From: a virus
Direction: 5' to 3' (one strand)
Virus record (IMG/VR): IMGVR_UViG_3300027956_000006
DNA length: 32,380 nt
Shown here piece by piece: positions 22,774-24,194 of the stretch. The notes beneath the pieces were generated by a model. It did not search any database and had not been told where the DNA came from. It saw nothing but the letters and a program-made list of their open reading frames with translations. How positions within the stretch are numbered: position 1 is the first letter of the stretch; the number at the start of each line of letters is the position of its first letter. A program made the position numbers and the translations under genes.

Positions 22774-23220
22774 TTACACCAATGACCCATCTGCGTCAAC
22801 ATCAAATTCTTGCATTGTTATTTCAACAATATATTTTTGCGTTGTATCACCAGGTATCCATTGTTCGTTATATTTTAGTAAGTATCCTTCAAGCTTTTTT
22901 TCAGAATATAAATTTGCCCCACTATTAATAGGGACAGTAATTCTTACGCCCTGATTATTATCTATATAATCAGATAATTGAGTACGTACAGTATCGGTAA
23001 TGACTTGTTTTGGGAAAGTTAAAGTAATAGTTTGCCAATTCGCTTTATGCTCAGACGACATTAAAGATAATGATCCATCAGCTAATGTCATAAAGTTAAT
23101 GTTAGCTTGATTTGTACGTGTTAATGAATTTAAACCAGCTCTAGGAATTGATGTATCTCTTACCCATAAACTTGTCCCAGTATCAAAATGTTCAATTGAC
23201 CAATATTTTATTCTACTCAT
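22774..23220 (-). CDS. putative distal tail (Dit)-like protein
   Basis: 148 aa, first structural-looking gene after the tape measure; beta-strand pattern (TLADGS, ITLTFP, YIVEITMQE) like small Dit proteins. Confidence 0.6.
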   Translation of the reverse strand: MSRIKYWSIEHFDTGTSLWVRDTSIPRAGLNSLTRTNQANINFMTLADGSLSLMSSEHKANWQTITLTFPKQVITDTVRTQLSDYIDNNQGVRITVPINSGANLYSEKKLEGYLLKYNEQWIPGDTTQKYIVEITMQEFDVDADGSLV

Positions 23221-23239
23221 GATTTTTTATAATTTAAAA

Positions 23240-23261
23240 TAAATTTGGTATAGAGATGCCA
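23240..23261. repeat. left arm of perfect 22-bp inverted repeat
   Basis: TAAATTTGGTATAGAGATGCCA, the exact reverse complement of 23822-23843. Confidence 0.95.
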
Positions 23262-23267
23262 TTATTA

Positions 23268-23801
23268 TTATAAATATTTTATACTACCATCATTAAGTTT
23301 ATATGTTCCACCTGTATACATATGTACCATAGAATTATTAGTAGTTAATTGTATATTTTCAGGTAATGTTGACGCTGCTGTTAAAACAGCATTAGTCGCT
23401 GTTGTTGTATAAGTTATTTGCAGATTATCAGCTGCTGTACACCACCAAGGTGGAACATATGGTGTATATTGTGGTTTAATTTCTATTTCCCAAGGGATAT
23501 ACCAAGGAACAGAAACTTGTTTTTCTATTATTTTTTCTTTAATAATAATAATAGATGCTTCTTTTGCTTTCGGATCGATATCCTGACGTTCTTTAATGCG
23601 ATCTATACGGCCATCTTTCATGTCCTCTAAATCGCGTTTTAATATTCTAATTTCTTCATCTAATTTTTGTCTTTGTTCTTCTTTTTGCTTTAATATTTCC
23701 AATGTTGTTTTTACTATAATTTTAATGCGTTTTATCTCTTCTTCCTTCATTTCATTTTCTGCTAACTTTACCCCTTCTTTTACTATTTCTTTTTGCGTCA
23801 T
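23268..23801 (-). CDS. hypothetical protein (N-terminal coiled coil, Pro/Trp-rich middle) enclosed by the inverted repeat
   Basis: 177-aa ORF with AAAGGGG RBS. Confidence 0.75.
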   Translation of the reverse strand: MTQKEIVKEGVKLAENEMKEEEIKRIKIIVKTTLEILKQKEEQRQKLDEEIRILKRDLEDMKDGRIDRIKERQDIDPKAKEASIIIIKEKIIEKQVSVPWYIPWEIEIKPQYTPYVPPWWCTAADNLQITYTTTATNAVLTAASTLPENIQLTTNNSMVHMYTGGTYKLNDGSIKYL

Positions 23802-23821
23802 GTATTTCCCCTTTCTATTCT

Positions 23822-23843
23822 TGGCATCTCTATACCAAATTTA
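23822..23843. repeat. right arm of perfect 22-bp inverted repeat
   Basis: TGGCATCTCTATACCAAATTTA. Confidence 0.95.
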
Positions 23844-23858
23844 AATATATTATAACCT

Positions 23859-24134
23859 TTATACAATTAAATCTTCTTTAGTTGTGCAATAAATAATACT
23901 TTTCAAATCTTGGATTGCATGGATAAAAGGATTTACTTGAACACTTCCATCATTATAAAAATCCTTTGCTAATTGGACACAATCTGATTGATCATCAAAA
24001 ATAAATGTTACCCTTTTACCATCACGACTAATATTAATTAATTTAATATTTTTACTTTTTAAATATGCTGCTAAATAGAAATCACTTACTGGGTATCCTT
24101 TTGTTTTTTCATCTTTTTTTAAATTAAACATCAT
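23859..24134 (-). CDS. DUF5659-like small protein
   Basis: SDFYLAAYL..R.G.RV.FIF..V.P.F..AI..LK..IY pattern recalled for DUF5659; AAGGAG RBS. Confidence 0.65.
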   Translation of the reverse strand: MMFNLKKDEKTKGYPVSDFYLAAYLKSKNIKLINISRDGKRVTFIFDDQSDCVQLAKDFYNDGSVQVNPFIHAIQDLKSIIYCTTKEDLIV

Positions 24135-24149
24135 ATCTCCTTTTTCATA

Positions 24150-24191
24150 ATAATCATATTTTGATTATATGTAATCATATTTTGATTATAT
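24150..24191. promoter_or_regulatory. tandem palindromic repeat (putative double operator) upstream of the DUF5659-like gene
   Basis: TAATCATATTTTGATTATAT twice (24151, 24172; 21-bp period); each copy is TAATCA-N5-TGATTA. Confidence 0.6.
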
Positions 24192-24194
24192 TTA

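What the first reader, a model, noticed from the sequence alone, without database searches (positions are those of the whole stretch)
23240..23843. Perfect 22-bp inverted repeat brackets exactly one gene plus its RBS inside the tail operon
Seen: TAAATTTGGTATAGAGATGCCA (23240-23261) and its exact reverse complement (23822-23843) enclose a 560-bp segment. That segment holds only the RBS and the 177-aa ORF. No transposase or recombinase is in the window and I see no target-site duplication. Inference gives three options. (a) An invertible ON/OFF cassette flipped by a recombinase encoded elsewhere. (b) A long-range mRNA helix, RNase III-like, that excises or circularises this cistron or loops it out so upstream ribosomes reach the SD-less Dit start 19 nt past the stem. 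(c) A non-autonomous mobile gene cassette. Perfect identity in otherwise AT-drifting spacers implies selection or a recent origin.
Basis: partly seen in the sequence, partly recalled or inferred. Interest (0 to 1): 0.8.

Follow-up and report, generated by a model that had tools for sequence, protein, structure and literature searches.

The report
Conserved RNA stem enclosing phage gene
The perfect 22-base inverted repeat is real and is one instance of an old, conserved feature: in about 50 of 63 related phage loci the same small gene is closed off by a stem whose letters differ between lineages but still pair, which points to a selected fold of the messenger RNA and not to a DNA flip-switch.

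Summary
Arms 23240-23261 and 23822-23843 are perfectly complementary. They enclose only a 20-nt leader with the RBS, a 177-aa ORF on the minus strand, and 6 nt.

The enclosed protein belongs to a large unannotated phage family (340 clusters at 50% identity). Of 63 distinct homologous loci, 46 have a flank-to-flank helix of -25 kcal/mol or better, against 3% of cross-locus controls.

The arms keep their position: about 20 nt before the ATG and about 7 nt after the stop. Their sequences are unrelated between lineages. In one orthologous clade, 11 of 16 pairs show compensatory double changes.

Internal mismatches favour G·U on the sense strand, 28 to 13. The gene sits in 46 different neighbourhoods and related stems travel with it. 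A second, unrelated gene family in the same genome shows the same kind of stem.

I found no inverted copy, target-site duplication, serine invertase, transposase or further arm copy.

Best reading: a selected long-range mRNA helix closing one cistron. It is probably an RNase III-type processing or stabilising element. A DNA-level cassette end is not excluded.

Earlier notes of this scan describe similar stems in other phages. I found no published description.

The parts
23822..23843 (-). 5' arm of the helix on the sense (minus) strand, reading TAAATTTGGTATAGAGATGCCA. It ends 20 nt before the ATG.
   Evidence: It is paired in both the MFE and the centroid fold of the whole cistron.
23802..23821 (-). 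Unpaired 20-nt leader with the ribosome-binding site (AGAATAGAAAGGGGAAATAC).
   Evidence: Read directly. The family-wide spacing from arm to ATG has a median of 20 nt and an IQR of 16-23.
23268..23801 (-). 177-aa ORF (P0001). It has a long N-terminal helix, a hypervariable Ser/Thr/Asn-rich middle and a conserved C-terminal ~25 residues. It has no Pfam or PHROG family.
23262..23267 (-). 6-nt spacer between the stop codon and the 3' arm (TAATAA, two further in-frame stops).
   Evidence: The family-wide spacing from stop to arm has a median of 7 nt and an IQR of 6-9.
23240..23261 (-). 3' arm of the helix on the sense strand, reading TGGCATCTCTATACCAAATTTA.
23846..23855 (-). Predicted outer extension of the helix, 5' side. 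It contributes 7 + 2 further pairs and starts 3 nt after the stop of the upstream gene.
   Evidence: Only the fold prediction (also RNAduplex). Not tested by comparison.
23227..23236 (-). Predicted outer extension of the helix, 3' side. It ends 6 nt before the ATG of the next gene.
   Evidence: Prediction only.
23859..24134 (-). Upstream gene, 91 aa, DUF5659 (PF18903). It is the conserved left neighbour in the window's clade.
22774..23220 (-). It has no Shine-Dalgarno-like sequence in the 19 nt after the arm. It is the conserved right neighbour in the window's clade.

Best explanation
The two arms pair in the mRNA, on the sense (minus) strand, and close the 177-aa cistron into a loop.

The helix starts just 5' of the ribosome-binding site and resumes about 6-7 nt after the stop codon. 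An initiating and a terminating ribosome can therefore both sit on the message without melting it.

The helix is part of the gene's own expression unit and has travelled with the gene between phage genomes.

The most likely action is as a double-strand RNase (RNase III-type) processing site, a nuclease-protecting end-to-end clamp, or both. Either way the cistron becomes a discrete, stable message whose output is set independently of the tail operon around it.

Shown: the pairing exists, it is conserved in position, and it is maintained by compensatory change. Inferred: that the pairing acts in RNA and not in DNA (my estimate about 0.7), and that RNase III or stabilisation is the mechanism (about 0.4).
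For: 1. The 22-bp helix is perfect and unique in the genome. It appears in both the MFE and centroid folds of the whole cistron, z = -5.7.

2. Among 63 distinct homologous loci, 46 have a flank-to-flank duplex of -25 kcal/mol or better, against 3.2% of non-cognate up/down pairings. For -30 or better the figures are 30 of 63 against 0.5%. There are 28 helices with no shared 9-mer.

3. In a 14-locus orthologous clade, a 16-pair consensus helix is 95% paired, against 43-55% when the partner is slid. Eleven of the 16 pairs show double-sided changes, against 2-5 when slid.

4. In the same gene context (DUF5659 - gene - 148-aa gene), the window and L008 carry a helix unrelated to the one in L011-13, at the same place.

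5. The geometry is tied to the enclosed cistron. The distance from arm to ATG is 20 nt (IQR 16-23) and from stop to arm is 7 nt (IQR 6-9). The distances to neighbouring genes range from -27 to over 200 nt, and arm 1 overlaps the upstream coding end in about half of the loci.

6. Internal transition mismatches are G·U on the sense strand 28 times and A·C 13 times (p = 0.03), and 11 to 3 in the orthologous clade. Fourfold sites of these genes show almost no transition asymmetry: T/C 2.29 against A/G 2.15.

7. An unrelated gene family, a 193-aa secreted Gln-rich protein at G000:119182-119763, has the same kind of bracket in 4 of 6 lineages, again with unrelated sequences. The stem is therefore not a site for the enclosed protein.

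8. Precedents for 5'/3' pairing on one bacterial mRNA are hbs (14 bp, PMC5737220) and icaR (PMC3868564).
Against: There are no RNA data of any kind, so cleavage, RNA ends and stability are untested.

The strand test is only modest. The sense-minus-antisense duplex energy does not differ from cross-locus controls (p = 0.22). The first, stricter count was G·U 22 against A·C 16 (p = 0.42).

Compensated inverted repeats would also be expected of DNA hairpin or recombination sites.

In the window's own clade the arms are themselves near-palindromes (8 of 38 lineages significant against about 2 expected). The RNA model does not need this, and it resembles dyad-symmetric recombinase sites. The genome does encode a Xer-like tyrosine recombinase.

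The phage encodes no RNase III and the host is unknown.

Many helices are only 12-16 bp, which is short for RNase III.

Thirteen of 63 loci, mostly a short 134-157-aa subfamily, have no bracket.
Confidence: 0.6

Rival explanations
1. The arms are DNA-level cassette ends. They would be the ends of a small mobile single-gene DNA cassette. For example, they might fold into one hairpin in single-stranded or circular form, or act as inverted recombination sites used by a recombinase supplied in trans. Arm identity would then be kept because the mobility machinery needs the pairing or the symmetry.
For: The family gene lies in 46 different neighbour contexts among 63 loci, and related arm cores occur in different contexts.

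In the window's clade each arm is a near-palindrome with a roughly 6-nt centre. This is the layout of tyrosine-recombinase sites and of pdif modules.

G000 and its relative G001 both encode a Xer-like recombinase.

Earlier notes of this scan read similar cases in other phages as cassettes.
Against: There is no target-site duplication above chance. G000 has no further copy of the arms or of an arm-like dyad. There is no array of bracketed genes near the recombinase. No Y1 transposase or serine recombinase is present.

Arm sequences are unrelated between orthologous loci, although the recombinases are orthologues at 57% identity.

Arm 1 lies inside the upstream coding sequence in about half of the loci.

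Most lineages (30 of 38) have non-palindromic arms.

The spacing is fixed relative to the RBS and the stop codon. Mismatches favour sense-strand G·U.
Confidence: 0.2
2. The helix is mainly a long-range translational coupling device. It would loop out the inserted cistron so that the stop of the upstream gene lies next to the start of the SD-less downstream gene. Alternatively it would mask the downstream RBS until ribosomes open arm 1. Either way the coupling of the two flanking tail genes would survive the insertion between them.
For: In the window, the predicted extended helix begins 3 nt after the DUF5659 stop and ends 6 nt before the ATG of the next gene, which has no Shine-Dalgarno sequence.

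In L011-13, arm 1 is the last 14 nt of the upstream ORF, and in L011 arm 2 contains the GAGG in front of the next gene.

Opening of long-range pairing by translation is established for RNA phage MS2 coat/replicase (my own knowledge, not checked here).
Against: Across the family the outer distances are highly variable: -27 to 197 nt upstream and -23 to 225 nt downstream. Most downstream genes have their own good SD (median score 4-5).

The bracket persists where the neighbours are unrelated.

Only the inner spacing, to the enclosed gene's own RBS and stop, is conserved.
Confidence: 0.1
3. The segment is an invertible ON/OFF switch, flipped by site-specific or homologous recombination between the two arms.
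For: Inverted repeats flank a promoterless gene with its RBS. One Xer-like tyrosine recombinase is encoded 61 kb away. The arms have an asymmetric centre between symmetric halves.
Against: Five fetched contigs of this phage from separate samples, out of ten that carry the protein, all have the same orientation. In all 13 loci with called genes the gene is co-oriented with its neighbours. Two apparent exceptions in my crude check were ORF-calling artefacts.

There is no serine invertase. The arm sequence is not conserved between orthologous loci. Arms of 12-16 bp in many lineages are too short for homologous inversion.

Inversion would silence a gene that is otherwise strictly conserved.
Confidence: 0.04
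4. The repeat is a chance match, a recent local duplication or an assembly artefact with no function.
For: None beyond the AT-rich composition of the spacers.
Against: There were no matches in 100 shuffles. The repeat is identical in four other independently assembled contigs, and a fifth ends inside the 3' arm. The bracket is conserved with changed sequence in about 50 related loci.
Confidence: 0.01

Closest known systems
RNase III processing stalks that bracket 16S and 23S rRNA in bacterial rRNA operon precursors, and the RNase III sites of the T7 early polycistronic mRNA (my own knowledge, not re-read here)
   Same: The sequences on both sides of one functional unit pair over hundreds of nucleotides into a helix of about two turns. 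The helix is maintained by covariation. The expected outcome is excision of the unit from a longer transcript, leaving structured and protected ends.
   Different: Here the enclosed unit is a protein-coding cistron inside a phage tail operon. T7 sites are local hairpins between genes, not brackets. Cleavage is not shown here. Many family members have helices of only 12-16 bp. The phage has no RNase III of its own.
5'/3'-UTR base pairing on single bacterial mRNAs: B. subtilis hbs (14-bp interaction that modulates RNase Y cleavage, PMC5737220) and S. aureus icaR (3'-UTR pairs with the SD region, with RNase III involved, PMC3868564)
   Same: The leader and trailer of one cistron pair with each other. 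The helix length is of the same order as hbs. The proposed effect is on ribonuclease access and message stability.
   Different: In icaR the pairing covers the Shine-Dalgarno sequence and represses translation. Here the RBS is left free in a 20-nt spacer. Those cases are single chromosomal genes. Here the feature is kept across a whole mobile phage gene family, and in a second family, inside polycistronic operons.
pdif (Xer) modules of Acinetobacter plasmids, and Cre/lox-type sites (my own knowledge)
   Same: One gene is bracketed by two sites in inverted orientation. In the window's clade each site is itself a near-palindrome around a roughly 6-nt centre. A Xer-like recombinase is encoded in the genome.
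   Different: There is no conserved recombinase-binding consensus, and the arms are unrelated even between orthologous loci. Most lineages lack the dyad symmetry. No further sites or modules occur in the genome.
Mycobacteriophage mobile elements MPME1/2 and other MITE-like small elements
   Same: A unit of about 0.5 kb with one small ORF and terminal inverted repeats sits inside phage genomes and is found at many different sites.
   Different: MPME copies are nearly identical and multi-copy, with short imperfect repeats. Here there is a single copy per genome, no TSD, and old divergent arms kept by compensation. Synteny is stable within clades.
PeSL (promoter-early stem-loop) cassettes of T4-type phages (PMC2839356)
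   Same: Short structured intergenic elements flank non-essential phage genes and are linked to gene shuffling between phages.
   Different: PeSLs are direct repeats that each combine a promoter and a local terminator hairpin. Here the two flanks are complementary to each other, and no promoter or terminator signal exceeds chance.

Membership tests
RNase III-type processing stalk around a transcript unit | The flanks of the unit form a double-stranded RNA helix of about 20 bp or more. | tested here: met
   The helix has 22 perfect pairs plus a predicted outer 9 pairs. The family's median core is 19 bp, range 12-38.
RNase III-type processing stalk around a transcript unit | The pairing is conserved through compensatory change. 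| tested here: met
RNase III-type processing stalk around a transcript unit | RNase III cleaves both strands in vivo or in vitro. | not testable with these tools
   No RNA data are available. The phage has no RNase III gene and the host is unknown.
Bacterial 5'/3'-UTR pairing (hbs / icaR type) | The leader and trailer of the same cistron are complementary. | tested here: met
Bacterial 5'/3'-UTR pairing (hbs / icaR type) | The pairing masks the Shine-Dalgarno sequence (icaR subtype). | tested here: not met
   The RBS lies in the unpaired 20-nt spacer. The family-wide spacer is 16-23 nt.
Invertible DNA switch (Hin/Gin/Cin or Fim type) | A dedicated invertase is encoded nearby or elsewhere in the genome. 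| tested here: inconclusive
   There is no serine recombinase. One Xer-like tyrosine recombinase lies 61 kb away and scores below all curated cut-offs.
Invertible DNA switch (Hin/Gin/Cin or Fim type) | Both orientations are found in populations. | tested here: not met
   All contigs of this phage and all loci with called genes show one orientation. This rests on assemblies only; no read-level test was possible.
Invertible DNA switch (Hin/Gin/Cin or Fim type) | The recombination-site sequence is conserved among relatives. | tested here: not met
   The arms are unrelated between the window/L008 and L011-13 in the same context.
Transposon, MITE or MPME-like element | A target-site duplication flanks the terminal repeats. 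| tested here: not met
   Flank repeats are at chance level in 43 loci.
Transposon, MITE or MPME-like element | The genome holds several copies, or a transposase is present. | tested here: not met
   Only two arm copies exist. There is no Y1 transposase. The enclosed protein has no known family or catalytic domain.
Transposon, MITE or MPME-like element | The element is found at many unrelated insertion sites. | tested here: met
   There are 46 neighbour contexts among 63 loci. This was measured over evolutionary distances, not between near-identical genomes.
pdif / Xer module | The flanking sites match a conserved XerC-centre-XerD consensus. | tested here: not met
   Dyad symmetry occurs only in the window's clade (8 of 38 lineages), and the half-sites differ in every lineage.
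Integron cassette / attC | The cassette lies in an array next to an integrase, with an attC hairpin at the 3' end of each cassette. | tested here: not met
   The gene is solitary in a tail operon. There is no array near the recombinase. The arms are split evenly to both sides of the gene.
PeSL cassette | Direct repeats that each hold a promoter and a terminator hairpin. | tested here: not met
   The repeats are inverted, and no promoter or terminator signal exceeds shuffles.

The most novel reading that the evidence does not exclude
Gene-closing helices may be a general, undescribed grammar of phage operons. On this reading, portable late or accessory genes carry their own closed-loop mRNA module. 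The stem sits exactly at the edges of the initiating and terminating ribosome footprints. That placement would let the cistron be cut out or clamped and translated repeatedly in a loop, with the stop next to the start, independent of the operon it lands in. The same stem could also double as the DNA hairpin that lets the unit move, linking expression insulation and mobility in one element.
Probability: 0.2. Interest if true: 0.85.

Novelty: new variant of a known kind. Interest (0 to 1): 0.6.

Why it matters
Long-range helices that excise a unit from a transcript are textbook for rRNA. For bacterial and phage protein-coding cistrons, only a few single-gene 5'/3' pairings are documented.

Here a whole, widespread and unannotated phage gene family keeps a cistron-closing helix through complete sequence turnover and through moves between genomes. 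A second, unrelated family does the same. That would make such stems a recognisable annotation feature. It would also offer a natural insulator for expressing a gene inside a foreign operon, and a direct test case for how phages set the dose of single proteins within long late transcripts.

The finding also warns against reading every gene-flanking inverted repeat in a phage as a DNA switch or a transposon end.

Tried and rejected
1. DNA search of the region against deposited phages found no match.

2. Single-protein locus searches for the 177-aa, 193-aa and 144-aa proteins in viral contigs found nothing. Alignments were needed instead.

One search was a mistaken call.

4. I looked for an empty site, that is DUF5659 directly followed by the 148-aa gene, using the DUF5659 alignment. 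Only the already known relative came back, so a precise presence/absence comparison could not be made.

5. I tested whether bracketing is a general habit of this genome. It is not: the distribution over 316 genes equals the non-cognate controls, with only 3-4 outliers.

6. The 144-aa family has a bracket only in G000 and not in 5 relatives.

7. The first, stricter G·U against A·C count and the sense-against-antisense energy comparison were inconclusive.

8. Arm self-palindromy is not a universal property. It is confined to the window's clade.

9. Bracketless family members do not carry a compensating local 3' hairpin. In the 193-aa family, however, the two bracketless loci do have terminator-like hairpins.

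10. Rfam has no family here.

11. The AlphaFold model is confident only for the N-terminal helix, with mean pLDDT 63, so I ran no fold search. The PDB profile search returned only a coiled-coil peptide at E = 0.77.

12. My crude neighbour-strand check produced false 'opposite strand' calls in GC-rich loci. I inspected two of them and dismissed them.

13. The idea that the gene inserts into the loop of a pre-existing target hairpin is weakened, because related arm cores occur in different contexts.

Full report
**Observation**

The window carries TAAATTTGGTATAGAGATGCCA at 23240-23261 and its exact reverse complement at 23822-23843, 560 nt apart. No such pair arises in 100 dinucleotide shuffles.

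The window is G000:C1:53943-86322 on the minus strand of a 175,053-bp, 31% GC viral record rated complete. That genome holds exactly these two copies, allowing up to 3 mismatches.

All genes in this stretch run on the minus strand. Read on the sense strand the order is:
- tape-measure-like gene, 1177 aa (phrog_1293)
- DUF5659 gene, 91 aa
- 5' arm
- 20 nt with the RBS
- 177-aa ORF (P0001)
- TAATAA
- 3' arm
- 19 nt without a Shine-Dalgarno sequence
- 148-aa gene
- 1736-aa beta-helix protein

Four other contigs of the same phage, from separate JGI samples, carry the identical repeat in the same orientation, and a fifth, from a Logan run, ends inside the 3' arm. The repeat is therefore not an assembly artefact.

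**The enclosed gene**

P0001 has no Pfam or PHROG family. It does have about 30 homologues at 38-69% identity in the word-indexed search. In the exhaustive search, 340 representative clusters match at E of 0.001 or better.

The family has three parts:
- a strongly conserved N-terminal half, predicted as one long helix with pLDDT around 90
- a hypervariable Ser/Thr/Asn-rich middle
- a conserved C-terminal ~25 residues

The PDB profile search finds only a designed coiled coil at E = 0.77. Its function is unknown.

Its typical homes are virion modules. In the window's clade it lies between the tape-measure and DUF5659 genes and the 148-aa gene. In a larger clade it lies between a Neck1/tail-completion (HK97 gp10-like) gene and a tail-terminator gene. 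Other members sit next to a LAGLIDADG endonuclease and an Acb5-like gene, or next to a LigT/Tad3-like gene.

**The bracket is a family trait**

I collected 99 loci that carry a family member. They reduce to 63 distinct flank sets.

RNAduplex was run between the 60 nt before the ATG and the 60 nt after the stop:

| Duplex energy | Cognate loci | Non-cognate up/down pairings |
|---|---|---|
| -25 kcal/mol or better | 46 of 63 | 3.2% |
| -30 kcal/mol or better | 30 of 63 | 0.5% |

Four further loci have somewhat weaker clean helices. Thirteen have none, and these are mostly a divergent 134-157-aa subfamily.

The core helices have a median of 19 bp, range 12-38. Their sequences are unrelated between lineages: 28 helices share no 9-mer.

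In one orthologous clade of 14 loci, the arms can be aligned independently of any structure. RNAalifold then gives a 16-pair helix:

| Measure | True pairing | Partner slid by 1-3 columns |
|---|---|---|
| Cells paired | 95% | 43-55% |
| Pairs with double-sided changes | 11 of 16 | 2-5 |

In the window's own context the stem has been replaced outright. The window and L008 share a GTATAGAGA core, with the helix slid by several bases. L011-13 use GGCTTCGCCAGCC at the same position.

Conversely, related cores such as GGTCTC...GACC occur in loci whose neighbours on both sides are different. The stem therefore evolves under a pairing constraint and moves with the gene.

**Geometry**

Across 46 bracketed loci:
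- The 5' arm ends 20 nt before the ATG (IQR 16-23), leaving the RBS unpaired.
- The 3' arm starts 7 nt after the stop (IQR 6-9).
- The distances to the neighbouring genes are not conserved: -27 to 197 nt upstream and -23 to 225 nt downstream.
- The 5' arm overlaps the end of the upstream ORF in about half of the loci. In L011-13 it encodes a C-terminal KKASPA extension of the DUF5659 protein.

The stem is anchored to its own cistron. From established knowledge of ribosome footprints, the mRNA entry channel reaches about 11-13 nt from the P-site codon. I infer that a ribosome at the stop codon and a 30S subunit on the RBS can both be accommodated without opening the helix. That is expected of an RNA element and has no obvious reason in a DNA site.

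**RNA or DNA?**

This is the weakest link.

For RNA on the sense strand:
- Internal transition mismatches are G·U 28 times and A·C 13 times (binomial p = 0.03).
- The count is 11 to 3 in the orthologous clade.
- Fourfold-degenerate sites of the same genes show nearly symmetric transitions, T/C 2.29 against A/G 2.15. Simple mutation bias therefore does not explain the excess.

Against over-reading this:
- A stricter non-redundant count gave 22 to 16 (p = 0.42).
- Sense-minus-antisense duplex energies do not differ from cross-locus controls.

**Tests of the DNA-level readings**

- Flank direct repeats are at chance, so there is no target-site duplication.
- G000 has no third copy of the arms and no arm-like dyad.
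- There is no serine recombinase, no Y1 transposase and no RNase III.
- There is one Xer-like tyrosine recombinase at G000:124028-124957. No array of bracketed genes lies beside it.
- Its orthologue in the related 135-kb phage is 57% identical, yet the arms of the two phages are unrelated.

One feature does fit a recombinase site better than an RNA stem. In the window's clade each arm is itself a near-palindrome, for example TTGGTA-TAGAGA-TGCCAA. Eight of 38 lineages are significant against about 2 expected, and the half-sites themselves change in step between lineages. The remaining 30 lineages lack this. I leave it unexplained.

**Not specific to this protein**

A genome-wide scan of 316 called genes in G000 shows that bracketing is not a general habit, because the distribution equals the controls. 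There are a few outliers:
- this gene (-37.4 kcal/mol)
- a 193-aa secreted Gln-rich protein (-34.2)
- a 144-aa secreted protein (-28.6)
- a looser 25-bp repeat around a 131-aa ORF

Homologues of the 193-aa protein carry brackets with unrelated sequences in 4 of 6 lineages. The two that lack a bracket have a terminator-like hairpin after the stop. The 144-aa family has the bracket only in G000. The stem is therefore not a binding site for the enclosed protein. Self-mobilising (RAYT- or MPME-like) models are unlikely.

**Local checks**

The whole-cistron fold keeps the 22-bp helix in both the MFE and the centroid structure, z = -5.7. It adds 9 outer pairs that reach to 3 nt after the upstream stop and 6 nt before the next ATG. 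Rfam has no family here. Promoter and terminator scans are at chance.

**Mechanism**

I commit to a selected long-range mRNA helix that closes the cistron. I put about 0.7 on its being an RNA-level element.

A perfect 22-bp duplex is the classical minimal substrate of bacterial RNase III. The most likely action is therefore cleavage that releases a monocistronic message whose ends stay paired and protected. In the shorter-stem lineages, an uncleaved clamp that blocks end-dependent nucleases is more likely. I put about 0.4 on this specific mechanism.

Closing the loop would also place the terminating ribosome beside the RBS. This is pure inference.

**Comparison and novelty**

The closest known things are:
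- rRNA processing stalks and T7 RNase III sites
- the hbs and icaR 5'/3'-UTR pairings
- on the DNA side, pdif modules, MPME elements, integron cassettes and PeSLs

The membership rows give the tests for each. Four literature searches found no description of cistron-closing helices conserved across a phage gene family.

Earlier notes of this scan report similar stems in other phages and mostly read them the same way. One note reads a similar 545-bp unit as an MPME-like mobile cassette. I treated these as leads only.

I class the finding as a new variant of a known kind, of moderate to high interest. What it lacks is any RNA-level measurement.

Noticed in passing
G000:119182-119763 (minus strand; outside the window; locus L103:1183-1764): A 193-aa secreted, Gln-repeat-rich protein is bracketed by a 21/22-bp helix (TAAAATAGGGTAGAC.CCTATA). 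Homologues in 3 of 5 other lineages carry brackets with unrelated sequences, and the other two have a terminator-like hairpin instead.
   Followed up: partly
G000:39784-40218 (plus strand; locus L104:1285-1719): A 144-aa secreted protein is bracketed by a 15-bp perfect repeat (TATTTGGCTGTACTA). Five homologous loci in other phages lack any bracket.
   Followed up: partly
G000:109946-109978 and 110211-110243 (locus L106): This is the longest inverted repeat of the genome, 33 bp and perfect. It encloses only 232 nt of mostly non-coding DNA between two minus-strand genes. Its nature is unknown: it could be a regulatory region, an origin or an RNA gene.
   Followed up: no
G000:165269-165293 and 165834-165858 (locus L105): A 25-bp perfect inverted repeat surrounds a 131-aa ORF, a local hairpin and about 100 nt of spacer. 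AGAGAGAGAA runs lie just inside both arms. A tandem TAGTTAAGTA array follows the right arm.
   Followed up: no
window 24151-24192: A 21-bp unit (TAATCATATTTTGATTATATG) occurs twice in tandem, in the spacer between the tape-measure-like gene and the DUF5659 gene. Each unit is itself palindromic.
   Followed up: no
window 23262-23270: The 177-aa ORF ends in three consecutive in-frame TAA codons, directly before the 3' arm.
   Followed up: no
P0001 residues ~115-150 (window ~23350-23460); alignment A1: The family has a hypervariable Ser/Thr/Asn-rich segment of very variable length, lying between a highly conserved coiled-coil half and a conserved C-terminal ~25 residues. This pattern is typical of surface-exposed or receptor-facing parts of virion proteins.
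   Followed up: partly
L011:2964-2981, L012 and L013 equivalents: In three relatives the 5' arm of the stem lies inside the upstream DUF5659 ORF and encodes a C-terminal KKASPA extension. The window's protein lacks this extension.
   Followed up: partly
L014:1110-2822 and L015:1048-2004: Distant family members, still bracketed, lie in accessory regions. One sits next to a LAGLIDADG homing endonuclease and an Acb5-like gene. The other sits next to a LigT/2',5'-RNA-ligase/Tad3-like gene.
   Followed up: no
window 23822-23843 and the arms of L008, L011, L013, L015, L018, L025, L035: In this clade only, each arm is itself a near-palindrome with a 5-7-nt centre rich in TCTC/GAGA, and the half-sites co-vary between lineages. 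No model I tested explains this.
   Followed up: partly
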